A stretch of 64,000 nt of DNA from Azolla caroliniana (taxonomy: Eukaryota; Plantae; Polypodiophyta): NCBI GenBank assembly GCA_043228905.1, contig JBHGNT010000020.1, positions 5,952,001-6,016,000 of the forward strand, given 5' to 3'. Below are positions 6,875-46,178 of this stretch, in pieces. The position numbers and the translations under genes are program-made. Numbering within the stretch: position 1 is the first letter of the stretch; each line of letters starts with the position of its first letter. The notes beneath the pieces were generated by a model. The model was not told the DNA's origin, made no database searches, and saw nothing but the letters and a program-made list of their open reading frames with translations.

Positions 6875-9800
6875 TGTTAGGAATAGTACTAAGACAGAGA
6901 AGGAATTAGTACTAAAAGAAGTATTAGTACTAAGAGAGGTGAAGAACTCTCGAGAGAAGGAAAGAGTGAGTGAGAGGGAGAGAGAGTGATGATAAGAAAA
7001 GATATGTATTATGTGAAGAGAATGTACAGTAGTAGCTAGGAGGCTTAAGACTGGCGTTGAACCGATTTGGTTCGAAATAATGCCTTGTGCCTCCATTTCT
7101 TGTGTTCTAAGGAATACTCCTGAAGCTCTAGAATGTTCTAGAGAAATCTGGAATATACATAATTTTCTATAGTAAAACATAAATGAAAATAATATTCTAC
7201 GTATTACAATGTATGGTCTAATGGTCAAGAGCTCGACCCATGTAGCATAAGGTCATGGGTTCGAGTCTTGCCATATCATGACACTATCCCCCCTCTAAAA
7301 CGACGAGTGTAACGAGTCGTTTTGGATTGAGGACCCGGTTTGTCTAGATATTGACGATGGAAGTCTTTAAGAAGAGCACGAGCATTGGTGACATTCTCTA
7401 TCGGTTCCCAAGTACGCTCGCTTGGACTATATCCTAGCCAATCGACTAGATAGTAGAGCTTGTTGCAAACAATCTTGGAATCAAGGATGGCGGCAACCTC
7501 GTACTTAGGTCCATCCTCAAGCTCGATCGGGGGCGGAGGCTGTGTAATACGTCATGGGATGGTGCTCTCTTGATAGGGTTCGAGGAGAGAACTATGAAAC
7601 ACCGGATGTATCCGAAGTTGCGGAGGTAGATCGAGACGAAAAGCGACATTGTTAATCTTTCCTATAATACGGAAAGGACCTAATCGCCGATAATCCAACT
7701 TCTCGCATGGGCGAGTAGTCTTGATGTGTCGTCGTAGTAGCCATACCCGATCTCCAATGTTAAAACTGGATGGGAGTCGATGACAATCCGCATAAACCTT
7801 CTGTGTTTGTTGAGCTTGTTGGAGATGAGTTGATAAATCCGCTTGTATCTTGCGTAACCGCTCCAAATGATCCTCCGCGCAAGGATTTGTGGACACCTCT
7901 AGGGTTTCAAGAACACACCACCGGGGGTGACATCCCATATAAGCATAAAATGGCATAACTTTAGTCGATGCGTGGATAGAGTTATTATAGGAAAATTCAG
8001 CGAAGTGACTTGATGAGAAGATCCCTCTAGAAAATGCCTCCATTGCATAAAAGAGTCCACTATAGCCAATAGCTATTTATCATGAATTTCGTAGTTGATT
8101 TCGGCAGCTTCAAACTTGCATGAGTGAAAAGCCACAGGATGTAGCTTTTCATCATTACCTCGTTGTGATAGAATGCTCGCCAATGCAAAATCCGATGTGT
8201 CCGCTTCGATGATGAATGGTTTTTCTGGATCAACGTGAGCTAGAATTGGAGCCGATGTAAATGTCTGTTTAAGATTCTCAAAAGCCATGTCCGCTTCTTT
8301 AGACCAAACGAACGATTGTCCCTTCCTAGTAAGTTGTGTAAGAGGCAAAACGAGCTTTGAGTAATCCTTTATAAACTTCCAGTAAAAATTGGCAAAGCCT
8401 AGAAAGCATTGCACATCCCGCACCGAATGCGGAGTCTGCCATTCTACCACCGTTTTGACCTTAGCTGGGTCCATGGAGATGCCTTCTGAGGAAATGATAT
8501 AGCCGAGAAATTCCACCTAGTTGCGCCCGAAACTACATTTTTCCAGCTTTGCATAAAGGCCATTTTCTCGAAGTCGTTTTAGTACTAACAGTACATGAGA
8601 ATCATGCTCTTCTTGGGTCATTGAGTAAACCAGTAGATCATCCAAATAGATGATTAGACACACATCTAAGAGATCTCGGAAAATATCATTTGCCATGTGC
8701 TAGAAGACTGCTGGTGTATTAGTGAGGCCGAACGGTAGGCCCGTATACTCGAAGTGCCCATATCTGGTGCGGAACGCGGTCTTCCATTCATCTCCTGGTC
8801 GGATCCGTCTTTTAGAACCTTACACCATTGATCCGTTCTAAAAGACTTGAGATAAGGGGGAGTGCATACCTATTTTGGATTGTAACCTTATTCCAGCCAC
8901 GGTAATCTACAACGAGACGAAGTGAGCCATCCTTTTTCTTGACGAAGAAAATGGGTGCGCCGGCTGGAGATTTTGAATGTCGTATGAAACCATTCTCCAA
9001 ATTCTCCTCTATATAGGCTTGAAGGACTTCCAGTTCGGTTGGTGACAGATTGTAGATCGGTCCCCATGGTGACTCTTTCCCCAATTGTAAATCGATGGGG
9101 CAATCATAAGGTCGATGGTGAGGAAGCGTATTGGCTTGTACTTTATCAAACACATCGGCATAATGACGATACTTCTCTGGAAGTTGAACGCTGGATTCCT
9201 CTTTAGTGGTACTGGAGGGTTTTACTGATATTGTGAAGAGGAACATTTCTTCCTTGCGTCCTTCCTCACGCAACTGATGTATTGAAATCGTTGCAATCTC
9301 ATGAGTAGACCCTCAGACTTTTCGATGCCGGATTTCTCTTGTTTGCCAATCTATGTCTGGGTTATGTAATTTGAACCATGGTAGTCCTAAGACAATGGGG
9401 TGTTCTGGGATGCTAATTATATTAAATGATACGACACATGCTAGATTATCTAGGACAATATTAACGGGCTTTGACTCTTCTGTGATATTTTTGGAAGCAA
9501 TGGGACGACCATCAATAACTATTACAGAGGCAGGACACGGGAGTTTTCTGAGAGATATTTGATGAGCTTGGGCAAATTTCCTATCCATGAAGCAAGAATT
9601 AGCCCCGGAATCTAGAAGTGCTAAGACATGTATTGGAGGAGTACTTTTAGTACTAACTGTTACTTGGGCTACGAACACATTGCTAACTTGCTTAGAGGAA
9701 ATGGAACCACTAATGGGTTGCATAGATCTAGGGCTGTCAAACCAATCGGCTCCTATTTTGGCTGGACTTAGTCGTTTAACTCTTCCTCTAACTAACTAAG

Positions 9801-10075
9801 GACATCAAATTTGTTCGCTAGATTTGGGCTATCAGTACTATTAGGACTATCAGATATCCCTACTGAAATAGACTCGTGTTTAGTACAATCAGAACTAGTA
9901 ACTATTTGGTTTACCTGCTTTCTTGCCCTATGGGGACAGTTTACTGCGATATGCCCTGGTCCACCGCAATAAAGACATAGTTGGTTTGCTCGGCGTCGTT
10001 GCTTTTCTTCTTCCGATAGCGGTCCATGACGAGGTGTGGTGTCAATTTCCATCGGAGTTGGAGTACTTACTAATA
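6875..10075 (-). mobile_element. 5'-truncated Tcn1-like chromovirus (3' LTR 6875-7283) with an internal integrase deletion
   Basis: Colinear with 39378-43610. CCHC knuckle CLYCGGPGHIAVNC, PR LLDSGANSCF, RT YLDD, and chromodomain YEVAAILDSK...TWEP at ~7330-7510. About 980 bp is missing at ~8008 relative to 40540-41515. Confidence 0.9.
7207..7279 (+). promoter_or_regulatory. tRNA-like Pol III A/B-box cassette at the LTR U3 end (copies at 39747, 44973, 45776)
   Basis: A box TGGTCTAATGG 7214-7224 and B box GGTTCGAGTCT 7258-7268. The 44-nt offset equals tRNA positions 8 to 52. Confidence 0.65.
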
Positions 10076-10089
10076 GAAAATGAAAAATT

Positions 10090-10270
10090 AGGGGTTTTGA
10101 GAGATATGGCTTCCGTAGGGAAAATTAGGATTAGGTTATATGAGTATTATGGCTTCCATAGGGAAGATTAGGGTTTTGGAGTGTTATGGCTTCCGTAGGG
10201 AAGATTAGGGTTTTTGAGTGTTATGACTTCCGTAGGGAAGATTAGGGTTTATGAGAGATATGGTTTCCCT
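10090..10270. repeat. Minisatellite, ~38-bp unit containing TTAGGGTTTT
   Basis: gagtgttatggcttccgtagggaagattagggtttt repeated about 5 times imperfectly. Confidence 0.8.
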
Positions 10271-10639
10271 AAGATAAGGGAGTTGAGAAGGAAAAGAAAA
10301 TTAAGATAATATGGAGAGTCAGTCCTAGTGTAGGAAAAAAATGGAATATATATGGTGTTCTCCCTTGATCATAGCCTTTCCACTTTTTGTTGCATGGCCT
10401 CTACTTTTAGTTGCTTAGCTTTTTCTTTTAGTTGCATCTATTTTTAGTTGCACGTGACCGTCCACATGATCTTTACTTTTTGCATGCACTCCAACTTTAG
10501 TTGCTTGCGTCCACATGGCCTTTACTTTAGTTCTCTTCACTTTACTTTAGTTTGTTGCATGATCCAATCTTCCGTCCGTCCGCGTCCAACCTCGTCTGGT
10601 AGCTGGTTCCACCCGATCGCCGAATCCCTCGTCGGCTGG

Positions 10640-10965: not shown

Positions 10966-11278
10966 TTAGGGAATCTGGCCACCATCATCCATTAAGACAA
11001 AGTGGCCAAAGTGCTCTTAACACAAATGAAAAATGAGGGAGCTCAAGGTGCTTATATAGCCAGGGCCTTAACTTTCCTATCTATGTGGGATAGTTCTAAT
11101 TTCCCTATCTTCTCAAACTTTATTTTCACATAAGTTGATATGTATTTCTCCATTTTGTATATAGTAAATACATTTTGAAGCTCTTGAGTATATCCATCTT
11201 TCTATAGTAAGCTACTAATCTAATCTATAATAATTATTTCATTATTTTTTTACATAGTGTGTGAAGATTCACACGACA

Positions 11279-15393: not shown

Positions 15394-15428
<35 letters not shown>

Positions 15429-15871: not shown

Positions 15872-15873
<2 letters not shown>

Positions 15874-15921: not shown

Positions 15922-15925
<4 letters not shown>

Positions 15926-24000: not shown

Positions 24001-25855
24001 CTTTGCTCTTCATCCTCATGGGGAAGATCCATGTGTATCTAGAGAAGTCATCGATGAAGGTAACATAGTATCGACATCCTCCGAACATAGCCGTTTGTGC
24101 CGGTCCCCACACATCCTAGTGGACTACGTCCAATAGGCCTTTGCTCATGTTGCTCTCCTTCGGGAACGGGTGCTGATGTTGCTTGCCGAATTGGCATGCT
24201 TCACATACTCCTTCAATCTCTTTCTCTTTGAAGGTTGGGGGCCTGATGACGACTCCTTTCGATTGCATCGCCTTGAGTTTGTTGAGATTGATATGGTCGA
24301 TTCTTTTATGCCATAGCTCTATGTCGGTGTCGGGTTTGAGGCCATTTGCAAACATGGCCAATTTTACCTCGTTCGCTTCGAGGATAAACAGTCGGCCTTC
24401 CCTTCGACCACGAGCAATTAGTCGGCCTTCCTCCTTGGTTGAATTGAACTTGCATCCCTTGCTCCACAATTTGGCCGACCAAGACCAAATTCTTCGTTAT
24501 GGTGGGTACATGTAAGACATTTTTTATGCAAATTTGTTCACCTTCTTTCCCGAATGGGACATTGCCAACATGCTGAATCGGATGTGTGGTGTCATCTCCG
24601 GTCTTGAGATAACCGGGTCGATCCGGCTCTTGAAGGTCTTTGAACCATTCTTGATGGGACGTCATAAGGTTCGAAGCACCGGAGTCGACGAACCATACAT
24701 CTTCTGGATTGGAGGCATTAGTCGAAGTAGAGGCCGACATAGAATTTGCTCTATGTCTCATTACAAACATTCCACCATGATCTTCATAATCAGAGTTGGT
24801 GGAGTAATTGGTGAGTTGTCGGCTTGTGGAAGCCAACTCGCGCGTCTTCTTTCAGCACTCTTCTTCATGGTGGCCTATTTTTCCGCAATAACCGCATTCG
24901 ATCGAGGTTTTTTGGCTTGGACCGGAATGGAAGCTCCCCCTTCTTCCAAAGGTTCCTTGATGGCTTTCGTTTTGTTGCCAAAATTGGGAGTTGTTGCCGT
25001 AAGGCGAACCTTGTCTGCTTCGTCCTTGGCCGAATCGGCCTCTTGCTCGATCACGTTCTCTTCCTCCATTCGAATGTGTGTAGAGCATGTGGCCTTCCGA
25101 GGTGTTCCTCCTTGTTAGAACATGGTTTTCTTCAACGAACAACATGGATTGAAGATCGAAGAAAGAGGGAGGATTCTCCCTTGCTAGGACGATGGTTCTC
25201 ATTGTGCCAAACCGTGGTGCAAGGCCGTCGAGGCATATTTGCACCATCTCATCATCATCCACATTGACGCTTATTGAGCCGAGCAAGTCACAAAGCTCCT
25301 TGATCCTCAAGGTGTAGCTTGTGACTTGTTGTTTAACTCTTGGCGGAGTTGAAGCTTTCGTGCCGTTGTATTGGCGGAAAATATCTTCCTTAGATTGTCC
25401 CATGCTTCCTTTGGCTCTGTGGCTTCTCGAATGTAGCCGAGCATGTGGTCATGAACACATGTCGCTAAGCAATACATTACTTGACTCGCCGCTTGCTCCC
25501 ATGTTGCATCGTCGGGCCGGTTTTCTTGTGCTCCTTTACCAACAAGGTATTGGTGCATCTTGTACTCCCAAGATGCGAAGTTGTTCTGGTCCAACTTCTC
25601 GTTAGGGAGAGCGCTCCCCATTTGAATATTCATGGTGTTCGATGTAGATTTCTTCCTTCTTCTTCTCTCTTGAATATGAGCTATGTAGTTGCACTGCGAT
25701 AACGATGAGCCAATTCTTCTTGAACGTCGGCGTAAAGCTCAACACACGCGGATGGGCGAGATCAAGCTACCAAACCGCTCTGATACCATGTAAAGCATCG
25801 ATGGTGATTCATGTGTACAGTGGAATAGACTAGAGATATGTGTTGTGAGTGTGTG

Positions 25856-29645: not shown

Positions 29646-32600
29646 AGAGGGCTATCAAGGCGTGGGGCTGCGATAGTCCGGACACTCCGGGAAAACCCCA
29701 CAAGTGTACGATAGCGAAGAAGACCTGTACTATAACTAGGAAATTTTGGTTCTCCGACAATGGAGGGTGTACGATAGTCGACGTTGTTGGCCGGAAGAAG
29801 AAAAGGGCGGAGGAGCGACTTCGGGCATGTGGTATCCTCGGCCTTGGAGAGGAAATCAACGGAGCCGTGGAGGCGGTCTCTTTCAACGATACCTTGGGGG
29901 AGTTGCGAGAGGTAGTCGGAGGAGTCCTTAAAGAGGACCGGACGATTCCGATATGTTCGGAAAGGATGTACGAAGTCATCGCGGACTTCAGTAGAGGGCT
30001 CGAGTCGGATCGGGCGTCCTGGGTGGACACGAGGTACAAGACTGTGGACTGGAAGGTGAGGCTAGTTGCGGCTCCCTTGCCGGAGGGCAGCGAGTTGCGA
30101 ATAAAGGGGGTTGCGTCAGACCCGAGTTTACGAAATCCAGCTAGCATAGGACACATGTTCACCGACATAACGCTGCGCGAGCTCAAAATCGGTGGGGGCG
30201 GCTTCCTATTGCTGGTGGAAGAGGACCGTTTTTGGGAAATGCTCGGGAGGCACGGGAAGGCTTTCGCATTCTCACCGAAGGAGATCGGGTGCGTAGATCC
30301 GACAGTCGTGGAACTGATGGTGATATTCACGGTGCCGCATGTGCCGTGGAGTCTCAAACCGATTCCAGTACCCAGAGCCCACATCCCGAAGCTGATGGAG
30401 CTGTTAAAGTAGAAGGTCGAGATGGGAATCCTCGAACCGTCGAGTGCCCCATACTCGAATCGGTGGTTTACCGTGCCGAAGAAGGACGGCACGCTGCGCT
30501 TTATTCAAGACCTGCAGCCGGTCAACAAGGTGAACATTCGAAACGCAGGAATCGGACCGACAATAGACGAGTTCGCGGAGGCCTTCGCTGGAAGGTCGAT
30601 TTACTCGGTCGGTGATCTCTACTCGGGGTACGATCAGTTCCAGCTAGCCATAGAGAGCAAAGACATCACGACAATGCGAACTCCTCTCGGCCTAGTACGG
30701 ATGTGTACCCTACCACAAGGAGGGACGAACTCGGTGGCTCACATGGTGAACGCAATGAACAAGGTGTTGAGGGATTGTATCCCGGACATCACTATGCCGT
30801 TTCTGGACGACGTCCCGATCAAGGGATGCCCGGTGGAGGAAAGGGACGAGACGATCGGACCGGACGGGTGCTGGAAACTCGTGGCGACGCACATCGATGA
30901 CTGCGAGAAGGTGCTACAGAGGTTGGAGGGCGCAAGGCTCACCTTCTCCGGGGGAAAATCGGCCTTCGGGCAATCAGAGATCATGGTTGTCGAACACCTA
31001 TGCAGGTTGTACGGCCGGAAACCGTCTCCGGCTAAGGTAGAAGCCATCTCCACGATGAAGGACGATTGTAGTTCGGTCACGGAGGTTCGGAGGTTCTTGG
31101 GAGCGTGCGCATTCTACCACATATGGATCCCGCATCACGCTCACATCGCGGAGTCGTTATACGGGTTGCTGAAAAAGGGGCAAAAGTTCGAGTGGAGAGA
31201 CGAGCATACGGAGTCTGTCCGAAAGATGAAGGAAGCACTTGCCGCAGCTCCGGCGCTCCGAAAGGCTGTCTACGGAAAGGACACTCCAATTTACGTAACG
31301 ATAGACACGAGTCCGACCGGGATCGGATGGGTCGTCAACCAAGAGGACGAGGACGGCATGCGTTTCCCGATCCGGTTCGGCGCGAAGGTCCTCAGCAAGC
31401 GACAGCGAGAATACGCCCAGGTTAAACGTGAGCTCTGGGGTATCGTTTCGGCGAAAAAGGCCGATAAAGACTACCTGATCGGGGCAGAGGTAATTATCGA
31501 GACAGACTGCCTGCCAATTCTTGGCATGGTTTCCGGATGCGCGACGCTGGACCTGGCCATGCTCAAGTGGATGGCGTACATCAAGTCCCTGAATCCGGAA
31601 ATACGACACATTTCCGGGAAAGACAATGCCATGGCCGACATGCTTTCAAGGGCGAGGTTCGAAAACGAGGGTGGCATGGTTTCAGAGTACGAGGAAGTCA
31701 GCGTGGACTTCTTCAAGGCGGCTCACGTAACAACCGGTAGGGAATGCACACCAACACTTAATGATTTCGACGAGAGTAAGTACGACGGGGAGTGGCTGCA
31801 GATCGGCGGGTTCTTGAAAACAATGACACCAGACGCGGCATGGACAACGGACGAGGCCAACCGGATTCGGAAGAAAGCCTACCGATTCTTTCTCCGGGAC
31901 GGGTACATATGGAAGCATCCGAAGAAGAGGAACGACATTCCGCTCCGAGTGGTGGCGAAGAAAGAGGAACAGGACTATTTGCTGGCGGCGTACCACGATA
32001 GTCCTTGGGCTGGACACCGTGGAACGTGGGCCACGTTCGAAAAGCTAAAAGGGAAGTACTGGTTGTCGGGACTATACCGGGACGTGCATCTGTTCGTGAC
32101 AACTTGCGAAAGCTGCTAGGTGCACTCCATGATCCGACACTGGGACGAGCTTCACCCGACCTACCCTCCGACCGTCCACTTCAAATGGATGGTGGATTTG
32201 GTGACGATGCCAATGGGGGTAGGACAGATGCGGTATCTGGTGCTGGCTCGGGAGGATCTAACAAACCAAGTTGAAGGCCGAGCCCTGCAGAACAAGACGA
32301 CTCCAGCCGTATGACGGTTTTTGATTGAGGACGTGGTATGCCGATACGGGTGCGTAGGGAAGATCGTGGCTGACCGTGGTGAGTTGGACGCAGAAGAGGC
32401 CGAAGAGCTGTTCGACCGGCTAGGAGTCAAACTTTCGCTCACCACAACGTACAATCCGGAGGCGAACGGGAAGGCCAATTGTCAAAGCGCTAGTACGGGC
32501 GTGTGGAGGCCGAGTCGGGAACTGGCCACGGCTGCTACCTTATGCCTTGTGGGCGGACCGGACTACGCACAGTTCGGTAACCGGGTTCATGCCAGTCGAG

Positions 32601-33113
32601 CTTATGTTCGGACAGAAATCGATCATGCCAACAGAGCGAACGATCTCCTCGTGGGCCACGGTGGACTGGAGGGATGAGATGAGCCGGGAGGAACTATTGG
32701 CGGCGAGGATTCGACAGCTTGAGCGGAGGCCGGAGGACGTAGAGCGAGCCGCGGAGAGACTTCGGGTAGCGAGGATAAGGAACAAAGCGCGATTCGGCCG
32801 AACACACCAGCGCAGGCCAAGGAAGATCGAGGAAGGCGACTGGGTGCTAGTCTACGACAGCAGCCTCGACAATCAGGACAGGGCCATGCAGAAGTTTGCG
32901 AGGAGGTGGTTCGGGCCTTACGTAGTAACAGGCGCCAACGACAATGGGATGTACCATCTCGCAGAGCTCGACGGTATGAGAATGGCGATACCAGTAGCGG
33001 GGAAGAGGATCAAAGCGTTCAAGAAACGACACGATGGTGAGCCGGAGCTAGGGGGCATGGACAGCAACGACGAGCAGCCCGAGGCGGAGGATAAACCGGT
33101 AAACGAGGAATAA
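29639..33113 (+). pseudogene. pol: RT-RNase H-integrase ORF of the Ylt1-like element, -1 frame relative to gag-PR
   Basis: Frame is open from 29639 into ORFs 29867-30412, 30422-32119 and 32120-32314. FLDD RT, IDTSPTG RNase H, H..GH..C..C zinc finger, ADRGE...YNPEANG core, WFGPY motif. Confidence 0.9.
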
Positions 33114-33878
33114 AAGCAAGGATCGGTTTTCTCCCGCAAGAACCCAATTTTGGCGCATACCGGTGGATGCGCGGTTAGGTGGGGGCGGATGTCGTGAAGA
33201 AAACCGTCCCCAGGCGCAAACCGTGTATAGTGTGTGTGAACCGGCCCTTACACGTGGGCACGCCCCTTGTTGTATAGTAGATAGGCAGGCACAAAGGTCA
33301 AATCCTAGGTAGCAATATTCTATAGGGGAAATCGAGGAGTATCTCTGTTCGAAAGGACAAAGAATTAATGTGATGTAAACGGGTGAAACGGCCTCCCTCC
33401 TTGAGCTATAAAAGAGAGGGAGACGGGGGAGAGAGGGTATCGTGCGCTAGAGGGGATGAAGTGCTGTCAGACTGGGACCGAGCTCTTCTTCTCTGTCATT
33501 CTCCATAGCTTTCTTTTGCGCAGGTTCTCAGGAGGCTGATCCTGCTCCGTGGAATGCTCGTGTGCTTCCGGTAGAATCTCCATCTTGCTCTCCTGTGTGC
33601 ATGGGTGATCAGGCGCCGACATCCATCTTGCCGACCTGATCGGCTGTAACCGTTCAAGTCGTCTGCATACATACAAATACATACACATATTTATATACAT
33701 ACGCTAGTGTTCCCAACTCGTGTCTCCTGTGTTGTTGGGTCGTGTCCCCATGCTCTTCTTTGTCTATATGTGTGTGAGCGTCTCTCTCTCTCTCTCCCTT
33801 TTCTCACCTATTCCTCGGTCCAAGACCCCTGTGGTCCCGCCTTGTTCTCCACGCACGCGCGTAACGACGCGACAACGT

Positions 33879-34442
33879 TTTGGGGAAATCATCGCTCGTG
33901 ACGAATTCGATATCATTGTTAATATCCTCGTCACAGACTGGAGATATTGGTCGGTCGTCCTCAACTCGCGTAGGAGAAATTGGATGACCTTGATGGACGG
34001 GACATGTGGGATGTGCCAAAAAACCTCGATGGTTGGGAGATGTGTGATGTGCGGAATTGCGAGAGGAAACCATATGAACTTAAATAAAGAGAGCTAAGAG
34101 AGTACATGAAGAAATGTACTAAAGTGTGTTAGATGAATTTGGACGAGGGAGTGAAGTGTGATATATTATCATGAGAGAGAATACTTATATACCCTTTTTT
34201 CATTTAAGTCACTGAGGATAAAATATCCCCCTATGATATAATCCAATTTAGGAATTTATCCCCTTTTTATCTATTTGAATTCCTAGATTAGACATTAGGA
34301 AATAAAAACCTCCCTTTTTAGGAAGTCGGTAATGAGTAGTCGGTCACCATCTCTCTAAGAATAATCCCTTAAATTCTACCAAACTAGGAAATTCTCCCTT
34401 TTAGTTAATGAGAATTCCTAGTTTAGAATTTAGGACTCAACA
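33879..34442 (-). repeat. Probable 5' leader and LTR of the outer chromovirus
   Basis: Joined to 26790 by the ACGT TSD. A degenerate PBS-like tcgatatca lies next to TGTT at 33917, with a candidate CAACA end at 34442. The far boundary is uncertain. Confidence 0.3.
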
Positions 34443-35149
34443 TCCCCTTTTTGGAAGTCGATGGGGATAGTTTGTGATTTTCTTGAGAATCATTGCTAAC
34501 AAACAAGGGCGATGATCAAAACATCCCTTCATCATCCCCATATTCTTCCCAACCATCTCACACTCATGCTCCCCTCTCACAAAACTAAAATTTTCCCTTA
34601 TATCTCTCCTTTGCATCGATTAATAATTGATGATGATCTTATCCATATAATCCTATAATCATCCCTATAATTATCTATATAATCATCCTTATAATTATCT
34701 ATATAATCACCCATATAATTATCCGCATAATTGAAACGCACCCGTAGTGATGGATGATTGTGGCCCTTTGATATAATCATAGGGTCGATGATCAATTGAT
34801 TATTGACATTCAACGATCATCACCCTAATTCTATTGGCCAACTTTATTAACATTGATTGTCAATGATCATTCTGTAATTGTATCATGATCATCAATTAAT
34901 CCATGTCAATTTGAAAATTAGATGATCAAGCATCACCTATAGTATATTAGGTGGCCGACCTCTAGTGATGCGATCTCCACACGTAAGGCCACCTCTGGGG
35001 CGTGGCCATCTTGATCGAGAGGGGTATACGAAAATAAAATAAAAGAATATTTATGGTGCTTTTATTTTAATAAATATATATTAAATATCTAAATGTAAAC
35101 CAAATATATAATAATAATAACAATAATTTTATAATTTTTTTTATAACCC

Positions 35150-35980
35150 GTTGATTTTTTTGTGCATCAATGTTGCTTCCAGCTCTTCTTCTGCGCGTGT
35201 AGCTTCTCGTGTCGGCTATTCGTGCGGTATTTCTTGCATAGGGTCTTCAACCGTATCATCCGTCATGGCCTTGAGGGAATCTGGTTGTGCATCCAAGGGT
35301 GGGTTTGGCAACATGGTGACCTCCAGGTTTTCTTCTTCTGGGTGTTGGGGTCTATCAATTGTGTGCTCCTTGGAGTAGTTGTCGGGGGGGGGGGGGGGGG
35401 GGTATGATGGCAGACGCCCTTTTTCCTTCTTCTGCCTTCCTTTGCTTGTTTTCGAATGCCTAGAGTTGGAGGGAGATGTCTGTCTTGTTTTTATGAACCA
35501 TATCCTTCTGTTCGTTCCGCATTGTGGCGAGCTCCCTGTGAACTTTGACTAAGGCGGCAGCTCGATTCCCATACTACCCTCATCCGCGTTTCGCATTCGG
35601 CCAATCTTGCTTAGAGTGTGTTCTTCCTCTTGTTCTACCATTCCAATCAGAGCTCACTCGATCATTTTCCTTTCTGCGTGCTCCTCTGCCATGTGTTACG
35701 AGACTTTGATTTGCTGTGTCGCCAAGAATTCCATGATTTCGAAGGAGGTGCTGAATTGGAGTAGAGCTGCGAATTCGTGGGCCACAATTGGCATCTCTGG
35801 GTAAGCCAGGACACCATTATCAGGTGTGAGGATCCCTTTGCCTCGTTCTGTATTTCCTATCAAGATCGATTGGATCGCGGAATTTCTTGAAGCACCTGCG
35901 TGGGCTCCGTTTCGACAATTACTGCGGGGGTAGGTTGTGGAGCCGCATCTTTTACCAAACCTCAACCATCCTTTCAATCT
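35150..35980 (-). pseudogene. Remnant of a gypsy-associated extra ORF
   Basis: YPEMPIVAHEFAALLQFSTSFEIMEFLATQQIKVS resembles YPDVPDMTHEFGSLLELGTIYELMEFLTTQ*IKVS at ~54860-54960. Confidence 0.6.
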
Positions 35981-36940
35981 AGTCGACGATGTTTGGGTTT
36001 AGGGCAACTTTCTTGCTCGTCGGTTTCATGGAATTGTTTGAGTATCGGCCATTCCATTACTCCAACCGGAAGCTATCGATCGCCGAGCATAACTACTCCA
36101 GGACCACGGGTGGAGCCCTCTGTATGATATATAGCATGAACAAATTTCGACACTACCTACTAGGTTGGAAATTCGTCTTTCAAGTGGATCACGTGACACT
36201 CCGCTATTTGGTTTCGAAGCAATCACATACAGGAAAGCTAGCACGATGTTACAGGAGTTCGTATTTGAAATCTAGCATTGGCCAGGCGCTTAGCATGCGG
36301 TGGCGATTATCTAAGCCATATCGAGAATGGCGAGAATGTTGTCGAAGGGGATGATGACTTTTGGACAACGGAATCCTACGCATTTCGGCAAGTGATGCTG
36401 AGACACACAAGTTGTCACCAAACGACAAATGTCTTGAGGATATGAGCCATTTCCTGAGCACAGGCCTACCACCTTTGTGGATGCGAACGGACGAGAAGAA
36501 GCAATTGACGGTCAGGAGTCGCAACTTTTGCCTATTAGAAGGAGTTACCTTGTATCACAAGGGAAGTGACAGCATTTGGAGAAGGTGTGTTCAAAATGAT
36601 GAGAAGGAAGCAGTGTTACGAGAAGCCCATTGCGGCAAAGACGGGGACTATTACACGGGTGACACTATTGCGCAGAAGATATGGCCAGGTGGGTTTTAGT
36701 GGCCAACCACACAGAAGGACTCCCAAGCGTACTACCGAGAAGGTGACCTATGTCAACGAATGGGACAACCTGTGGACCAAGCGTGAATGTCGCCTCAGCC
36801 CATGCTTCCATTAGAGTCATTCCAAAAATGGGGCCTCAATTTCATTGGCCCATTTGCCCCAACTACAACACACACGGGCAACAAGTACATTTTGGTCGCA
36901 ATGGATTACTGCACCAAATGGGTTGAAGCGAAATCCTTAC
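35981..36940 (+). pseudogene. Non-chromovirus gypsy RNase H-integrase fragment
   Basis: [36 protein letters not shown]...[16 protein letters not shown]. Confidence 0.8.
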
Positions 36941-37249
36941 CATCCCTTTGGCCGTCCAATGCAGTCAACACCCTCCGGATTACTGGATAGAATCTGGATT
37001 GGTTAAGCTGGAGCGATCAACCGGATGATGAGTCGGTGAGTAGTGGAGATTCAACTATGGTCTCCCCGTGCAAGGAACCGAGGAGATGGTTCACACGCAA
37101 ATAGAAGGGGAAGAAGAAGATGCCGGAATATGACACTAGTAGAGACGAGTTGGATCAGAGGGAATCTGACTCCGGAAAGCAAGAAGATGGACCTCCGGAG
37201 AAGAGGTCGAAGTCAGCCAAGAGGGCCATTAAATCGGCAAAGCAGATCA

Positions 37250-37740
37250 TGGAACGCAAAAATCATGGAGAGACTACGTCGGATGGGGTTTGCATCGTCC
37301 AAATCAGATGCTTCACTCTTCATTCAGTAGGGTCAGAATGGGCCGATAAGCATCTTGCTCTATGTGGATGATCTAGTCATCGCTGGTGTCGACCCGGAAG
37401 AAATCAATTGCACCAAGTCCAAACTCGCGGCATCGTTCGAAAAGAAGAATCTCGGGGACCTTCATCACTTGGGATTGAAGTGATCCGCACCCTCGAAAGC
37501 ATACTAATCAGTCAACGCCATTATATGTTGAGTATACTCTTCAATTCGGTATGACGGAATGCAAATCCATCTCAATTCGTCTAGACAAGAATGTGAAGCT
37601 TCACCTCGACTTCGGAACGACATGCAATCCGAAACAGTTCTGACAGATCGTCGGAAGACTTATCTACTTGACCATCACTTGGCTGGAGCTCAGCTATCCA
37701 GTCCGCTTGAGCAGTCAATTTATGGCGCATCTGACCGTTG
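37250..37740 (+). pseudogene. Copia RT fragment
   Basis: RMGFASSKSDASLFI, LLYVDDLVI and YLTIT remnants. Confidence 0.65.
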
Positions 37741-39477
37741 TCGTGAAGGATTCCGACCGGAGGAAGAAAACGGAGCCAGATGCTCGTGAACGGGGGTGTG
37801 CACGGATGCACACGAGAATTGTCTTTATGTACAAAGTGTGTAAATAACGTAGGACTAATAAGTACTAGAGGGTGTGATTTGATGGGTACTTTAATGTCCC
37901 ATAGAAAGAGAGGAATGAGAAGATACGATGTGAGAAAATTGAGGGGGCTTCCACCACTATGTATCTATCCCCTCTTGTAACTATTTAACTCCCTTGAAGC
38001 TTCTTTCTCTCTATCTCTCTTTCTCACATTGAACCCCCTTGGGAGGGGGGTGGAGCCATTCTAGGTGCCACCCCCACCCCGCAATGCTTCTAAATGCACA
38101 TCGCAATCATACCATGAACCCCACAATGCTTCCATCTTCATCACCATTTCCATCTCCATCACCATTAACATTCATGATCATCATCATCGTTAACCCTATT
38201 TCTATCTTTATCATTATTATTAACTCTAACCCTAAAACCATCAACAAAGCTGATTCCGGTGCCGAGAGCTCACATCCCGAAGTTGATGGAGCTTCTCAAG
38301 GAGAAAGTGGAGATGGGGATTCTCGAACCATCGAGTGCCCCTTATTTGAATCAGTGGTTTAAAGTGCCCAACAATCACACACTGTGCTTTATTCAGGACC
38401 TACAATCGGTCAACAATGTGACCATTCGAAATGTAGGAGCCGGTCCATAGATGAGTTCGCAGAGCCCTTCGCCGGCAGGTCCATCTACTCAGTCAGAGAC
38501 CTGTATTCCGAGTACGACCAGTTCTAGCTTGCTGTGGAGAGTAGGGATATTACAACAATGTGGACCCCCGTCAGCTTAGTTCGGATGTGTAACTTGCTAT
38601 AGGGTGGAACGAATTTGGTGGCGTACGTGTTGAATGCAATGAACAAAGTGTTGAGGGACTTCATCCCAGACATCACCATGCCATTTCTGGACGACATTCC
38701 GATCAAGGGATGTCAGGAGGATGTGAAGGATGAATCGGTCGGAGCCAACAGATGTTGGAAGTTTGTCGCGGACCACATCTCCGATTGCAAGATGACATTG
38801 CAGAGGCTTGAGGGCGCTTGACTTACCTTGTCCGAAGAGAAATAAATGTTCGGACTATCCGAGGTTATGGTAGTCAGACACTTATGCGGGACATAACCGT
38901 AAATCTTCTCCGGGAAAGGTAGACGCCATCTCCACAATGAAGGAAGACTGTCGATCGGTCACGGAAGTCCGACGATTCCTGGGAGCATGCGCCTTCTACC
39001 ACATATGCATTTCCCATTACGCACACATCATCGAGCCACTCTACGGCTTATTAAAGAAAGGAAGTTCGAGTGGACGGGAGAGCACATGGAGGCGGTTCGA
39101 AGACTGAAGGAGATGCTAACGGTGGTCCCGGCTCTCCGAAACGGGCCTTACAAGGCGTACACGCCAGTCTACATGACGGTTGATATGAGTTTGGCCAGAA
39201 TTGAGTGGGTGAGTCTGACCAGAATCAGGAGGACGAGGCCGGCACGCGGTTCCCCATCCGGTTCGGAGTGAAAGTCCTAAGCGAGTGACAGCGAGAATAC
39301 GCCCAGGTTAAACGCAAATTGTGGCATATCATCTCGGCGGTGAAGGCCGACAAGGATTACTTGATCAAGATGGAGGTTGTCAGGATCAGTACTAAGACAG
39401 AGAAGGAATTAGTACTAAAAGATGAGGATTAGTACTAAGAGAGGTGTAGAACTCTCATGAGAAGGAAAGAGTGAGCG

Positions 39478-39514
<37 letters not shown>

Positions 39515-42500
39515 GAGAGAATGATGATAAAAGATATATATTATGTGAAGAGAGTATACAATAGTAGCTAGGAGGCTTAAAACTGGCATTGAACAGATTT
39601 GGTTCGAAATAATGCCTTGTGCCTTCTTTTATAATGTTCTCAGGAATACTCCTAAAGTTTCTAGATGTTCCTGAGAAATCCGGAATATACATCAATTTTC
39701 TATAATAAAACATAAATGAAAATAATATTTTACGTATTATAATGTATGGTCTAATGGTGAAGAGCTCGACCCATGTAGCATAAGGTCATGGGTTCGAGTC
39801 TTGTCATATCGTTACACTATCCCCCTTTTAAAATGACGAGTGTCACGAGTCGTTTTAGATTGAGGACCCGGTTTGTCTAGATATTGACGATGGAAGTCTT
39901 CAAGAAGAGCACGAGCATTGGTGACATTTTCTATTGGTTCCGAAGTACGCTCGCGGGGACTATATCCTAGCCAATTGACTAGATAGTAGAGCTTGTTGTT
40001 AACAATCTTGGAATCAAGGATGGCGGCAACCTCGTACTCAGGTTCATCTTCAAGCTCGATCGGGGGTGGAGGCTATGTAATACGTCCTGGGATGGTGTTC
40101 TCTTGATAGGGTTCGAGGAGAGAACTATGAAACACCGGATGTATCCGAAGTTGCGGAGGTAGATCGAGACAAAAAGAGACATCATTAATCTTTCCTATAC
40201 TACGGAAAGGACCTAGTCATCGATAATCCAACTTCTCGCATGGGCGAGTAGTCTTGATGTTTCGTTGTAGTAGCCATACCGATCTCCAATTTTAAAATTG
40301 GATGGAAGTCGATGACGATCCGCGTAAACCTTGTGTGTTTGTTGAGCTTGTTGGAGATGAGTAGATAAATCGGCTTGTATCTTGCGTAACCGCTCTAAAC
40401 AATCCTCTGCGCAAGGATTTGTGGACAACTTTGGGGTTTCAAATACACACCACCGAGGGCGAGAACCCGTATAAGCATAAAACAGTGTAACTTTAGTCGA
40501 TGCGTGGACAGAGTTATTGTAGGCAAATTCGGCGAAGTGGAGAATATCTACCCAGTCATCCTGATGATAGCTTAGAAAGCACCGAAGATACTGCTCCAGT
40601 GTTTGATTTGTTCGTTCTGCTTAGCCATCCGTTTGTGGGTGGTAGCCGGAGGAGAGGTTACAAGTGAGCTTGAGCATTTTAAAAAGGTGCTTCCAGAATT
40701 TCGATACAAACTGGGGTCCACGGTCGCTGATGATACTATCGAGAAGGCCATGATGTCGACATACTTCACGCATGACAATTTCAACGGTTTCTTCATTGGA
40801 TATTTCCTTAGTACATGGCAAGAAATGAGCCATCTTCATATATCGATCTACGACTGTTAGAATCGCATTGAACCCCTTAGATACTGGAAGATCTGTGATG
40901 AAGTCTAGAGCAATGGATTGCCATGGCTTGCTTGGAATTGGTAATGGTTCTAATAAACCATATGGATGATGCCTTGGAATTTTCGCTCTGTAATATGTAT
41001 CACAAGTCCGAACTAAATCTTCGATAAATTGTCGCATACGGGGCCACCAAAATGATCGTTGTACTAAATCTAATGTTTTAGTACTACCAAAATGCCCAGT
41101 TGTATATGTGTCATGACAATTTTGGACTAATCGAAGGCGGCAAGAACAATTAGGAACATACAAGAGTTCATTAAAGAATAGTAATCCATCATGGTATTTG
41201 AATTGTCGATAGTCCGTACCTGGTCATTGCGACTGTGAACAAGATGCTCGAGAGGGATCAATTTGTGCTAGAATGGCTTCGGCGAAAGCATCGGTCTTCA
41301 AGTCCTCACATATAGTATCGATAACGTAGGAATCTATGGGCAGGCTAGGTACAAACGCCGTGATAATGCATCTGCCTTCCCTTGGTGCTTCCCCAAACGA
41401 TATGTAATTTTGAAGTCGAAACGCGTGAGGAAGTGGGCCCACCGAGCTTGACGTCGATTTAACACACGAGTGTCCTGAAAGTAGGCAAGGTGTTTGTGGT
41501 CACTGAATACGGTGTCTTGATGAGAGGATCCTTCTAGAAAATGCCTCCATTGTGTAAAAGAGTCCACTATTGCCAATAGTTCCTTATCATGAATGTCGTA
41601 GTTGATTTCAGCGGTGTCAAACTTGCGTGAGTGAAAAGCCACAGGATGTAGATTCTCATCATTACCCCGTTGTGACAGAATGCTCCCCAATGCGAAATCC
41701 GATGTGTCTGCTTCGATAATGAATGGTTTTTCTGGATCGACATGAGATAGAATTGGAGCCGATGTAAATGCCTTTTTAAGACTTTCGAAATCCATGTCCG
41801 CTTCTTTAGACCAAACGAACGATTGTCCCTTCCTGGTAAGCTGTGTGAGAGGCAGAACGAGCTTTGAGTAATCTTGTATGAACTTCCGGTAAAAATTGGC
41901 AAAGCCTAAAAAGCATTGCACATCTCGCACCGAACGCGGAGTCTGCCACTCTAACATAGTTTTGACCTTAGTTGGGTCCATGGAGATGCCTTCCGAGGAA
42001 ATGACATAGCCCAGAAATTCCACCTGGTTGCACCGAAAACTACATTTTTCCAACTTTTCATAAAGACCATGTTCTCGAAGTCGTTTTAGTACGAACAGTA
42101 CATGAGAATCATGCTCTTCTTGGGTTTTCGAATAAAGTAGTAGATCATCCAAATAGATGATCAAACAAACATCCAAGAGATCTCGGAATATATCATTTGC
42201 CATGTGCTGGAAGACTGTTGGCACATTAGTGAGGCCGAACGGCATGACCGTATACTCGAAGTGCCCATATCTGGTGCGAAACGCAGTCTTCCATTCATCT
42301 CCTGGTCGGATCCATATGAGGTTATAGGCTCCCGTAAGTCGATCTTCGTGAAGAACATGGCACCATTGACCCGTTCTAAAAGACTTGAGATAAGGGGAAT
42401 TGCATACCTATTTCTGATTGTAACCTTATTCAAGCCACAATAATCTACACCGAGACGAAGTGATCCATCCTTTTTCTTGACGAAGAAAATGGGTGCGCCG

Positions 42501-44590
42501 GCTGGAGATTTCGAATGCCGAATGAAACCATTTTCGAAATTCTCCTCTATATAGGCTCGCAGGACTTCTAGCTAGGTTGGTAACAAATTGTAAATCGGTC
42601 CCCATGGTGGCTCTTTCCCCGGTTGTAAATTGATGGGGCAATCATACGGTCGATGGTGAGGAAGTGTATTGGCTTGTACTTTATCGAACACATCAGCATA
42701 ATGATGATACTTCTTTGGAAATTGAACGGTGGACTCCTTTTTAATGGTGTCTGAGGGCTTTACTGATATTGCGAATAGAAACATTTCTTCCTTGTGTCCT
42801 TCTTCCCTCAACTGATGTAGCGAAATGGTTGCAATCTCATGAGTAGACCCTCGGGCTTTTCGATACCGGATTTCTCTTATTCTCTAATCTATGTCTGGGT
42901 TATGTAATTCGAACCATGGTAATCCTAAAACAATGGGGTGTTCTAGGATGCTAATTATATTAAATGATACTACATAGGCTAGATTATCTAGGAGAATATT
43001 AACAGGCTCTAACTCTTCTATGATATTTACGGAAGCAATGGGACGACCATCAATGACTACTACAGAGGCTAGACACGGGAGTTTTCTGAGTGATATCTTA
43101 TGAGCTTGGGCAAAGTTCTTATCCATGAAGCAAGAATTAGCTTCGGAATCTAGAAGTACTAAGACATGTATTGGAGGGGTACTTTTAGTAATAACTGTTA
43201 CTTGGGCTACGAACACATTGCTAACTTTCTTAGAGGGAATGGAACCACTAATGGGCTGCACATATCTAGGGTTGTCCAACCAAACGGCTCCTATTTTGGC
43301 TAGACTTAGTCGTTTAACTCTTCTTCTAACTGACTAAGGACATCAAATTTGTTCGCTAGATTTGGGCTATTTGTACTATTAGGACTTTCAGATATCCCTA
43401 CTGAAATAGATTCGGGTTTAGTACAATCAGAACTAGCAACTATTTGGTTTACCTGCCTTCTTGGCCTATGAGGACAGTTTACCGCGATATGCCCTGGTCC
43501 ACCGCAATAAAGACATAGTCGGTTTGCTCGGCGTCGTTGCTTTTCTTCTTCTGATAGTGGTCCACGACGAGGTGTGGTGTCAATTTCCATCGGAGTTGGA
43601 GTACTTACTAGAGTCGCATTATATGACTCCCTTGGAAAAGGTTTTGCTACCACGGAGGCATAGGTAGGCTCGGAGCTTGCCCTTGGCATCTGGAACTGAC
43701 GTTCCGAATGCTATTCGAAGAGGCGATTGTTGCATCTCACTATGCGACTGATTTCTTCTATTAATGAATTTGTTTCTTCGGGAAAGGTCAAGAGTAAATC
43801 TTTGACATCGTTACGTAGACCATAACGAAATTGCTCCATTAACGCTTGATCATCCTAGGGGATATCGGAGGCAAGTAGGCGAAAATCTGTAGCGTATGCG
43901 GAGGCTGGACGATCGCCTTGACGTAGTCGTCGGATTTTGTTTATTGTTGTCCTTATGCTGTCAGTATCTCCAAAACAGGATTTAAACTCACTTATAAATT
44001 CTTCAAAATTGTTTAGTAATGGAGATTCTTTTTCTTACAGCGGAGCAAACCATGCCAACGCTGAGCCACTTAACAACGTGCCTACTAAACCCACTTGTGA
44101 TGCATCGATGGGATATCGGGAAGGATGCATTTGAATAACTAGTCGTACCTGATTAAGGAACCCTCTAAACTGCAATCGTGTTCCATCAAATTTCATGGGA
44201 AGGCCAATCTTGGGTTCTTTATGAATCCCTTGTGTTCTGGGTCCTTGTTGTTGCATCGCTACGATGGTTGCTTCGAGTTGTTGCACACGCAACGTCAACT
44301 CCCCGTGTTGTTGTTGTTGTTATTCTAGTGTTATTTGTTGAACATCCCCCAAGAAACGATGATTTTCTTGTTCTAGTGCTACGAATTTGTCCTTTAAGCA
44401 CCGGAGCTCCAAGAAAACAGATTGGTATTCCTGAGCGCTAACAGTTTCCATTTTACTAGGGAGGATAAGAGGATTAGTATGAAAGGAAGAAAGGGGTAAG
44501 AAGATGAGGGAAACCGAAAAGAAGACCGGAAAAAGGGGATATGTAAGAAGATAAAAGGAAGAGGAAAGGAGGAGACGGAAGGAGGACGGA

Positions 44591-44602
44591 AAATCGGTTC
44601 AA
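44591..44602 (-). promoter_or_regulatory. Putative self-priming PBS (TTGAACCGATTT)
   Basis: 2 nt inside the 5' LTR end. Exact complement of AAATCGGTTCAA at 44829-44818 in the LTR. Confidence 0.75.
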
Positions 44603-44694
44603 ACTGTTAGGATCAGTACTAAGACAGAGAAGGAATTAGTACTAAAAAATGAGTATCAGTACTAAGAGAGGTGTAGAACTCTCGAGAGAAGGAA

Positions 44695-44741
<47 letters not shown>

Positions 44742-44855
44742 GTGAGAGAATGATGATAAAAGATATATATTATGTGAAGAGAGTATACAATAGTAGCTAG
44801 GAGGCTTAAGACTAGCGTTGAACCGATTTGGTTCAAAATAATGCCTTGTGCCTCC

Positions 44856-44862
44856 TTTTATA
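44856..44862 (-). promoter_or_regulatory. LTR TATA box (TATAAAA)
   Basis: 33 nt upstream of the predicted self-primer 5' end at 44829. Also present in the LTRs at ~39630 and ~45660. Confidence 0.65.
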
Positions 44863-45066
44863 GTGTTCTCAGGAATACTCCTGAAGTTTCTAGAATGTTC
44901 TAGAGAAATTTGGAATATACATCAATTTTCTATAAAACATAAATGAAAATAATATTTATGTATTAAAATGTATGGTCTAATGGTCAAGAGCTCGACCCAT
45001 GTAGCATAAGGTCATGTGTTCGAGTCTTGCCATATCATGACAGAGGTGATTATCGAGACAGAGTGC

Positions 45067-45597
45067 CTACCGATTCTTGATATGGTTTCTGCATGTGCAA
45101 CTCCAAACCTGGTAATGCTCATGTGGATCGCATATATGAAGTCCCTTTGCATATATCCGATAAAGCCAACACCATGGCTGATATGCTGTTGAGAGCATGG
45201 TTCGAAGGAGAGGATGACACGTGTCAGGAATAGTACTAGAGATAAGGGTGCAGAATTCTCGAGGGAGAGAGAGAGAATGATAACAAACGATATATTATAT
45301 TATATGAAGAGAATATACAAGAATAGCTTCTCTGTCTACCGATTCTTGATATGGTTTCTGCATGTGCAACTCCAAACCTGGTAATGCTCATGTGGATCGC
45401 ATATATGAAGTCCCTTTGCATATATCCGATAAAGCCAACACCATGGCTGATATGCTGTTGAGAGCATGGTTCGAAGGAGAGGATGACACGTGTCAGGAAT
45501 AGTACTAGAGATAAGGGTGCAGAATTCTCGAGGGAGAGAGAGAGAATGATAACAAACGATATATTATATTATATGAAGAGAATATACAAGAATAGCT
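45067..45597. repeat. 269-bp-period tandem duplication spanning a host/LTR junction
   Basis: 45067-45328 matches 45336-45597. The LTR start is duplicated at 45222 and 45491. Confidence 0.9.
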
Positions 45598-46178
45598 AAG
45601 AGGCTTAAGACTGGTGTTGAACCGAATTGGTTCTCAATAATGCCATATGTCTCTTTTTATAGTATGCTTAGGAGTACTCCTGACATTTCTAGAATGTTCT
45701 AGAGAAATCTAGAATATACATGGATTTCCTAAGTGAAATAATAAATGGAAATAATATTTTTTGTTTTACAATATATAGCTTAATGGTAGGGCTTCAACCT
45801 GTGTGATACAAGATCATGTGTTCAAATCCTTTTCAAGCCATACCATGCGCCATACCATGCTATATCATGACACTACCTCCCCCTTAAGACGATGAGTGTT
45901 ACGAGTCGTTTTAGATGGAGGACCTGGTTTGTCAGGATATTGGAAGTCCTCAATAAGAGCACGAGCATTTGTGACATTCGCAACTGGTACCATGTACGCT
46001 CGGTTGGACTATAGCCTAGCCAATCGACCAAATAGTAGAGTTGCTGCAAACAATTTTGGAATCAAGGATGGCATCAACTTTGTACTCCGATCCTGCTTCA
46101 AGCTCGATCAGAGGTGGAGGTGACCAGATGTAACCTTAGATGTGGAGGTAGATCAAGAAGAAAAGTGACATCATTAAC
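45491..46178 (-). mobile_element. 3' end of a diverged Tcn1-like subfamily (LTR 45491-45872, PPT, chromodomain remnant)
   Basis: TGTCAGGAATAGTACT...TATCATGACA, PPT complement ctacctccccctt, degenerate AILDSK...WLGYSP chromodomain. Confidence 0.8.

What the first reader, a model, noticed from the sequence alone, without database searches (positions are those of the whole stretch)
7207..45830. tRNA-type Pol III promoter built into the U3 tip of Tcn1-like chromovirus LTRs
Seen: all four LTRs that retain the U3 end carry an A box and B box at tRNA spacing near that end. Starts are 7214/7258, 39747/39791 and 44973/45017 (TGGTCTAATGG...KGTTCGAGTCT, offset 44). The diverged subfamily has 45776/45819 (TAGCTTAATGG...TGTTCAAATCC, offset 43). 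The boxes stay consensus-like while the sequence between them differs between subfamilies, and no cloverleaf forms. The cassette is antisense to the element, so it points into flanking DNA from the 5' LTR and across the PPT and chromodomain from the 3' LTR. Established: Cassandra TRIMs carry 5S-type Pol III promoters in their LTRs, and tRNA genes and TFIIIC sites can act as chromatin barriers. Inference: this protein-coding chromovirus may carry its own TFIIIC site as an insulator or antisense RNA source. I do not know of a prior description but cannot search.
Basis: partly seen in the sequence, partly recalled or inferred. Interest (0 to 1): 0.85.

Follow-up and report, generated by a model that had tools for sequence, protein, structure and literature searches.

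The report
Backwards tRNA promoter in retrotransposon ends
The end repeats of an abundant jumping gene, probably from a moss, carry a worn tRNA-gene piece facing backwards whose two promoter boxes stay intact while the DNA between them drifts, so it likely still binds the cell's tRNA-gene factor and may shield the element's own neighbouring promoter, though neither binding nor an RNA has been shown.

Summary
Confirmed. All four LTRs carry an A box, variable loop and B box at exact tRNA spacing, antisense at the U3 tip (0 of 100 shuffles). It is a tRNA/SINE-head relic, not a tRNA. The host element is a protein-coding Tcn1-type chromovirus with its own Pol II promoter (heat-shock elements, TATA, self-primer) 70-145 nt away. 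Between subfamilies, 0 of 11 invariant box positions differ versus 19 of 43 other cassette positions (p=0.004), but not significantly fewer than the rest of the LTR (p=0.16). Contigs from four organism labels show the B-box region among the most shared LTR parts; the A box is not. A distant lineage (L003) has the same antisense cassette; its four sampled sister loci lack it. Poly(A) RNA gave 25 reads and no start site. Best reading: a retained TFIIIC site acting as a barrier beside the LTR promoter (0.4); passenger relic 0.25. Closest known: Helenus TRIMs (sense, non-autonomous). This scan noted similar cassettes in probably fungal LTRs on other DNA. New variant of a known kind.

The parts
6875..7283 (-). 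L1: 3' LTR of element A (Tcn1-type chromovirus with an internal deletion; no 5' LTR found in the window)
   Evidence: TG...CA ends, PPT adjacent
7214..7267 (+). tRNA-derived cassette in L1: A box 7214-7224, variable loop 7250-7254, B box 7259-7267
   Evidence: 33.7 bits on an A/B-box matrix, 0 of 150 shuffles
7284..7295 (-). Polypurine tract of element A; the pol frame runs through it into the first bases of the LTR
7320..7323 (+). First T4 run downstream of the cassette (possible weak Pol III terminator; overlaps pol codons on the other strand)
   Evidence: function inferred
7354..7503 (-). Chromodomain with the three aromatic-cage residues (group I type)
   Evidence: PF00385 E 9.8e-15; residues read; group I definition from passages
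39378..45042 (-). Element B: full-length decayed copy, 5-bp TSD GAGGT, LTRs 93.3% identical (406 of 435), inserted into another gypsy-type element
39747..39800 (+). Cassette in L2 (3' LTR of element B, 39378-39816)
44973..45026 (+). Cassette in L3 (5' LTR of element B, 44605-45042), pointing into the flank
44903..44972 (.). 84% AT stretch between the heat-shock elements and the A box, where TFIIIB would be placed
   Evidence: role inferred from passage
44883..44902 (.). Four alternating GAA/TTC units: heat-shock-element array in U3 (three units in L4 at 45687; degraded in L1 and L2)
   Evidence: motif definition recalled, HSF binding not tested
44856..44862 (-). TATA box of the element's own Pol II promoter
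44818..44829 (-). 12-nt self-primer, 33 nt after the TATA start: predicted 5' end of the genomic RNA
   Evidence: perfect complement of 44591-44602
44591..44602 (-). [quoted passage not shown]
45776..45828 (+). Cassette in L4 (diverged subfamily, 3' LTR 45491-45872)
   Evidence: 25.7 bits, 0 of 150 shuffles

Best explanation
The LTR tip of this Tcn1-type chromovirus holds a backwards tRNA-gene-derived A/B-box cassette that is likely kept as a TFIIIC-binding site and would act as a barrier or roadblock for the element's own Pol II promoter next to it. Shown: order along U3 is tip, B box, A box (both facing outward), 60-70 nt of 84% AT DNA, heat-shock elements, TATA, self-primer. Inferred steps: (1) a tRNA gene or tRNA-SINE head was captured into U3 in reverse and copied to both LTRs by replication; (2) TFIIIC binds the B box and places TFIIIB on the AT-rich stretch; (3) because the group I chromodomain is thought to steer insertion into heterochromatin, a bound complex at the outer edge of the 5' LTR keeps nucleosomes, spreading silencing or host read-through off the HSE/TATA promoter; (4) masters that keep the boxes transpose better, so boxes persist while the cloverleaf decays. 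Any Pol III RNA would be a by-product.
For: Exact tRNA geometry (T8 to G53 45/44 nt, variable loop kept). Subfamily comparison (majority of L1-L3 vs L4): 0 of 11 invariant box positions differ vs 19 of 43 other cassette positions, Fisher p=0.004; all 5 changes inside the two boxes fall on degenerate positions; spacer differs at 12 of 25. Logan contigs of 4 runs under 4 organism labels: the 7240-7267 bin is the deepest LTR bin in 2 of 4 runs and second in the other 2; none of the 40 variant rows shown (of 63) lies in 7252-7283, against 13 of 61 positions in the AT-rich stretch. Same antisense cassette, same place, also followed by HSE arrays and TATA, in L003 (58% integrase identity to the window family's nearest protein), in a separate subclade. 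Its spacer and hairpin are not shared, its B box and variable loop are. Barrier, roadblock and nucleosome-phasing effects of TFIIIC sites are described for yeast (PMC4228148, passages); chromodomain-guided heterochromatin targeting is proposed in PMC3350952 (passages).
Against: Invariant positions are not significantly better kept than the rest of the LTR (0 of 11 vs 27 of 171, p=0.16), and L4 is one old copy. The A-box bins are no deeper than flanking U3 (134-201k vs 113-259k in X1), 3 of 11 A-box positions vary, and a G>A change at 7216 that breaks the consensus has 9% of depth in X1 and is in 5 of 7 and 2 of 2 RNA reads there. The B box lies 16-25 nt from the integrase end, so terminal constraint could explain its conservation. 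Contig depth is a noisy proxy, lowered wherever L1 has private changes. The cassette is absent from L001, L002, L004 and L012, which are closer to L003 than the window family is, so it is dispensable for the clade. No binding, chromatin or barrier data exist; barrier action of TFIIIC in plants was not found in my searches.
Confidence: 0.4

Rival explanations
1. Passenger relic: a reversed tRNA/SINE head was captured once or twice and survives only because it sits next to the integrase end and PPT; the boxes do nothing now.
For: p=0.16 against the rest of the LTR; A box not more shared than flanks; cassette missing in 4 sampled sister loci of L003; 0 of 48 automatically found LTR tips of other relatives scored above 11.5 bits; an earlier unchecked scan note read a similar reversed relic as a passenger.
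Against: Within the cassette, change avoids exactly the invariant positions (p=0.004); the B box and variable loop persist in L003 while its T stem, acceptor and spacer are gone; the U5 end of the LTR is far less shared than the B-box region.
Confidence: 0.25
2. Antisense Pol III RNA source: from the 3' LTR a roughly 110-130 nt RNA complementary to the U3 tip, PPT and the last pol codons is made and dampens or tunes replication (PPT masking, small RNAs); from the 5' LTR it runs into the flank.
For: Both boxes, AT-rich upstream DNA, and a T4 or longer run 79-133 nt after the A-box start in all three 3' LTR contexts and at 125 nt in L003.
Against: Only 15 and 10 reads in about 1,750 million letters per run, mostly of the orientation that is element-sense in a usual stranded library; no place where many molecules begin. 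Poly(A) libraries from a related organism label are a weak test. CAA not at -10..-3. The T run overlaps codons and could be chance.
Confidence: 0.15
3. RNA or DNA hairpin at the U3 tip, next to the PPT in the genomic RNA, is what is selected (plus-strand priming, packaging, integrase end); the boxes survive because they are part of the stem.
For: Long hairpin through the B box in L1-L3 on both strands (z -4.6 and -5.0 for L1).
Against: Not kept in L4 (z -0.7) or L003 (z -1.6, a different fold); a common G>A variant at 7242 (34% and 23%) hits the innermost pair.
Confidence: 0.12
4. Dampener rather than shield: a Pol III complex beside the HSE/TATA promoter represses basal transcription (tRNA-gene-mediated silencing), limiting activity to heat stress.
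For: A box starts 71 nt from the HSE array and about 110 nt from TATA; tgm silencing of nearby Pol II promoters is described in yeast (passages); very few transcripts in the two runs laid.
Against: Low RNA is equally explained by ordinary TE silencing; no data on induction.
Confidence: 0.08

Closest known systems
Helenus TRIMs (TRIMp3; Kojima 2024, PMC10886601; read parts 1-4 of 6, searched passages, passages of its one supplementary file)
   Same: tRNA-derived sequence inside LTRs, conservation centred on boxes A and B, no functional tRNA, proposed origin from a SINE2 insertion; one family in the non-seed plant Selaginella.
   Different: Helenus is non-autonomous and 311-1263 bp; the Helenus LTRs seen in the supplement passages, including Helenus-1_SMo, carry the boxes in sense and are thought to be transcribed from them. 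Here the element is a 5.7 kb protein-coding chromovirus, the cassette is antisense at the U3 tip, and a separate Pol II promoter drives the genome.
Cassandra and Ajax TRIMs (as described in PMC10886601)
   Same: Pol III internal promoter boxes from a small-RNA gene inside LTRs.
   Different: 5S type, sense, non-autonomous; Cassandra transcription starts in the 5S part.
Tcn1 clade chromoviruses of mosses and Selaginella (PMC2864245, PMC6317226, PMC3350952; passages)
   Same: RT-RH-IN-chromodomain order, group I chromodomain, no tRNA PBS, self-priming, LTR about 440 bp, 5-bp TSD.
   Different: No Pol III boxes mentioned in the passages searched ('polymerase III' 0 hits in PMC2864245); sampled relatives L001, L002, L004, L012 lack them.
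Yeast tDNA barriers and extra-TFIIIC sites; mouse B2 SINE boundaries (PMC4228148 passages; PMC8136502 abstract)
   Same: A/B-box DNA acting or proposed to act without a useful RNA product, next to Pol II promoters; B2 is a mobile boundary.
   Different: Host loci or SINEs, not part of an LTR; the B2 boundary in that abstract is tied to CTCF; activity here is untested.
ONSEN-type heat-responsive LTRs (PMC3907296, PMC13602373; search listing only)
   Same: Heat-shock-element array in the LTR.
   Different: Copia of Arabidopsis; heat response of this family is untested, and the P. patens chromovirus RLG1 is repressed by heat while RLG2 is induced (PMC7466625, passages).

Membership tests
Tcn1 clade chromovirus | Gypsy domain order with C-terminal chromodomain | tested here: met
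   PR, RT, RH, IN, SH3 on the minus strand; Chromo E 9.8e-15
Tcn1 clade chromovirus | Group I chromodomain with aromatic cage | tested here: met
   Y, W, Y at the cage positions read; definition
Tcn1 clade chromovirus | Self-priming instead of tRNA PBS | tested here: met
   12-nt complement 33 nt after TATA; criterion of at least 10 bp in PMC6317226
Tcn1 clade chromovirus | Groups with named Tcn1 references in an RT/IN tree | tested here: inconclusive
   Tree of 103 rows held no named Tcn1 reference; only Ustilago proteins were named, outside the window's clade
Helenus (TRIMp3) | tRNA-derived sequence with boxes A and B in the LTR | tested here: met
Helenus (TRIMp3) | Non-autonomous, about 0.3-1.3 kb, no coding capacity | tested here: not met
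   element B is 5,665 bp with gag-pol remnants
Helenus (TRIMp3) | Boxes in sense, able to transcribe the element | tested here: not met
   antisense to pol and PPT; sense in Helenus passages
tRNA gene | Cloverleaf with paired acceptor, anticodon and T stems | tested here: not met
Type 2 Pol III promoter (plant) | A and B boxes at workable spacing | tested here: met
Type 2 Pol III promoter (plant) | AT-rich/TATA-like upstream region | tested here: met
   84% AT over 61-70 nt; low information
Type 2 Pol III promoter (plant) | CAA triplet at -10 to -3 | tested here: not met
   a CAA sits at tRNA positions +1..+3 in L1 and L4 only (definition)
Type 2 Pol III promoter (plant) | Transcript starting upstream of the A box | tested here: inconclusive
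   25 poly(A) reads, no start pile-up
Type 2 Pol III promoter (plant) | TFIIIC/Pol III occupancy | not testable with these tools
   needs ChIP or footprinting
tRNA-derived SINE insertion | Free SINE copies, tail and TSD | tested here: inconclusive
   no free copy in the 64 kb window; no whole genome held; no tail seen

The most novel reading that the evidence does not exclude
Autonomous chromoviruses repeatedly domesticate tRNA-gene promoters in U3 as portable TFIIIC barriers: having aimed themselves into heterochromatin with a chromodomain, they carry the boundary that keeps their stress-inducible promoter open, and thousands of copies seed TFIIIC sites through the host's heterochromatin. The window family, L003, the two sense units in L098 and the earlier fungal notes would be instances of one recurring design.
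Probability: 0.25. Interest if true: 0.8.

Novelty: new variant of a known kind. Interest (0 to 1): 0.52.

Why it matters
How chromoviruses that insert into heterochromatin stay expressible is open, and TFIIIC barrier activity is well described in yeast but I found no report of it inside plant LTRs. A moss chromovirus with an outward-facing A/B-box cassette beside an HSE/TATA promoter makes this testable with one point mutation. It also extends tRNA-derived LTR cassettes from non-autonomous TRIMs to protein-coding elements, in an orientation that cannot drive the genome.

Tried and rejected
No whole genome is held, so no family-wide LTR alignment; conservation rests on 4 window copies and contig tables. 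ARAGORN and Rfam found no tRNA; ARAGORN at a lowered threshold on the loci gave only noise. A strict A+B regex found 0 antisense hits in 92 of 103 loci with enough downstream DNA and missed L003, whose A box deviates. Automatic tip finding scored 48 tips from 102 loci with a chromodomain hit among 140 and also missed L003, which was scored by hand; the whole-locus scan then found it. A PPT+tip+B-box pattern found nothing in viral or prokaryote-genome contigs; those collections gave only distant relatives, so the LTRs of the closest protein clade (P0001-P0025) could not be read. Common origin of the window and L003 cassettes is not settled: L1-L003 scores 42, an unrelated tRNA-like unit scores 34, L4-L003 is at chance. 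No landing-pad evidence: no insertion upstream of any of the four cassettes, and none among the loose ends shown (12-24 rows of several hundred). Function as a primer source rejected: the element has a self-priming site. Earlier-findings look-ups by place and sequence were empty. Pfam was run on 20 of 166 ORFs. PMC11656987 has 0 hits for tRNA or Pol III terms. bioRxiv supplements were not open and Repbase was not searchable, so an annotated autonomous family with this feature may exist unseen.
Full report
Observation. The four stated cassettes are at the stated coordinates. An A-box + gap + B-box pattern matches only in the four LTRs, 3 times with a T8-to-G53 distance of 45 and once with 44; 0 of 100 shuffles reached either count. 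A matrix scan of the window and 140 related loci (1,676,968 positions) gave 7 distinct sites at 25 bits or more: the four LTRs, one in L003 and two in L098. The box consensus used is recalled; the B-box form agrees with the passage. The spacing, the five-base variable loop and a 3-4 of 4 D stem mark a tRNA or tRNA-SINE head; the anticodon, T and acceptor stems are broken, and ARAGORN and Rfam call nothing.

The element. Pol domains and a chromodomain lie on the minus strand. Element B spans 39378-45042 with a GAGGT target duplication and LTRs 406 of 435 identical; its frames are broken. [quoted passage not shown] Self-priming and an aromatic-cage chromodomain are the marks of the Tcn1 clade of mosses and club-mosses (PMC6317226 and PMC3350952, passages), so the host is probably a moss (inference; no named Tcn1 reference was in my tree). 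U3 reads, from the tip: B box, A box (both facing outward), 60-70 nt of 84% AT DNA, a heat-shock-element array (four perfect units in L3, three in L4, none perfect in L1 or L2), TATA, predicted start. The cassette is therefore back to back with the element's own Pol II promoter, 71 nt from the HSE array and 144 nt from the predicted start.

Is it kept by selection? For: comparing the majority of L1-L3 with L4, 0 of 11 invariant positions differ against 19 of 43 other cassette positions (p=0.004), the spacer differs at 12 of 25, and the 5 changes within the boxes are all at degenerate positions. In Logan contigs of four runs under four organism labels (3,206-7,699 contigs laid per run), the bin holding the B box is the deepest of the LTR in two runs and second to the self-primer bin in the other two. 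At finer grain the peak is 7250-7271 in X1, and no variant among the 40 rows shown of 63 falls in 7252-7283. Loose ends show further subfamilies whose A boxes differ only at degenerate positions. Against: the invariant positions are not significantly better kept than the rest of the LTR (27 of 171, p=0.16); A-box bins are no deeper than flanking U3; a consensus-breaking change at 7216 holds 9% of depth in X1 (0.2% in X15); the B box is 16-25 nt from the integrase end; and contig depth is a rough proxy that drops wherever L1 has private changes. The B box looks constrained, the A box loosely so.

Distribution. Of 140 related loci, most are distant (30-50% identity). L003 has an antisense cassette at its LTR tip (25.7 bits, 0 of 150 shuffles) followed by HSE arrays and TATA. 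In an integrase tree of 103 rows (quick method; rows with under 300 aligned residues or under 42% identity were left out, apart from the two window copies and L012), L003 sits in a subclade with L001, L002, L004 and L012, which lack the cassette, apart from the window family; at least two changes are needed. So it is either old and repeatedly lost, or gained twice at the same place. Sequence similarity between the L1 and L003 cassettes (42) is only modestly above that to an unrelated tRNA-like unit (34), and L4-L003 is at chance. The long hairpin of L1-L3 is not shared by L4 or L003, which favours the boxes over the fold as the shared feature. L098, a distant gypsy element, has two sense units in its LTR. 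Three unchecked notes of this scan describe tRNA-type boxes in LTRs of probably fungal elements, two as landing pads and one as a reversed passenger; I did not test them.

RNA. Two poly(A) runs of 2026 under a related organism label gave 15 and 10 reads on 7030-7359 in about 1,750 million letters each; over the cassette most are in the orientation expected of element-sense RNA in a usual stranded library, up to 3 reads are opposite, and no start pile-up is listed. This neither shows nor excludes a short Pol III RNA. The first T4 run is 79-133 nt after the A-box start in the 3' LTR contexts, before the chromodomain. The plant CAA triplet (PMC13578239, passages) is not at its canonical place.

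Mechanism. I favour a retained TFIIIC site with an effect on the neighbouring promoter rather than an RNA product (0.4 for barrier or roadblock, 0.08 for dampener). Anatomy is shown; capture, binding, barrier action and selective benefit are inferred, by analogy with yeast tDNA and extra-TFIIIC sites (PMC4228148, passages) and B2 SINE boundaries (PMC8136502, abstract). Rivals: passenger relic 0.25, antisense Pol III RNA over the PPT 0.15, structural hairpin 0.12.

What is known. Kojima 2024 (PMC10886601; parts 1-4 of 6, passages, supplement passages) describes Helenus, non-autonomous LTR elements with tRNA-derived A/B boxes, one in Selaginella, and notes that 'not a few' Repbase LTRs hold tRNA-like parts, but analysed only elements under about 1 kb and argues that autonomous partners must use Pol II. 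This element fails Helenus membership on autonomy and orientation while sharing the cassette type. Six full-text searches found no description of such a cassette in Tcn1 or other autonomous plant elements; the library lacks most subscription journals and Repbase notes.

Verdict. Real and well beyond chance; a new variant of a known kind, with moderate evidence of constraint on the B box, recurrence in a second lineage, and no functional evidence. Interest 0.52.

Noticed in passing
window 44883-44902, 45687-45701; L003 4270-4341: Heat-shock-element arrays in U3 just upstream of TATA in both cassette-bearing lineages; the only arrays of 3 or more perfect units in the 64 kb window are in these LTRs.
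   Followed up: partly
window 44818-44829 and 44591-44602: Tf1-like self-priming pair; the primer sits in a short inverted repeat, as it also does in L001 and L003.
   Followed up: partly
L098 4834-4900 and 5002-5067: A distant gypsy element (36% to the query) has two tRNA-like A/B-box units in sense orientation about 110 and 280 nt into its 3' LTR (28.9 and 33.7 bits). A second case of such units in a protein-coding element.
   Followed up: partly
L003 4134-4217: Antisense cassette with a perfect 4-bp D stem of different sequence and a terminal hairpin between B box and LTR end.
   Followed up: yes
window 7069-7078 and equivalents: A second B-box-like word on the plus strand overlaps the predicted Pol II start; it lacks the final invariant C and is changed in L4.
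   Followed up: no
window 7296-7323: An 8-bp inverted repeat in the last pol codons directly before the PPT, ending in the T4 run.
   Followed up: no
window 30361-39366, 45041-45146: Element B is nested in another gypsy element without a detected chromodomain, whose gag region hits DUF4100; that this family is known from Physcomitrella is recalled, not checked.
   Followed up: no
window 21400-25700, 46450-49000, 59900-64000: Three related copia elements, 65-74% alike.
   Followed up: no
window 45064-45597: Near-perfect 269-bp tandem duplication spanning the junction of L4's U5 end and its target.
   Followed up: no
L019 and L041, just before the PPT: A B-box-like word in sense orientation immediately upstream of the PPT in two distant elements; may be chance.
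   Followed up: no
L110-L139: 30 prokaryote genome records hold eukaryote-type gypsy integrase sequences, most likely contaminating contigs.
   Followed up: no
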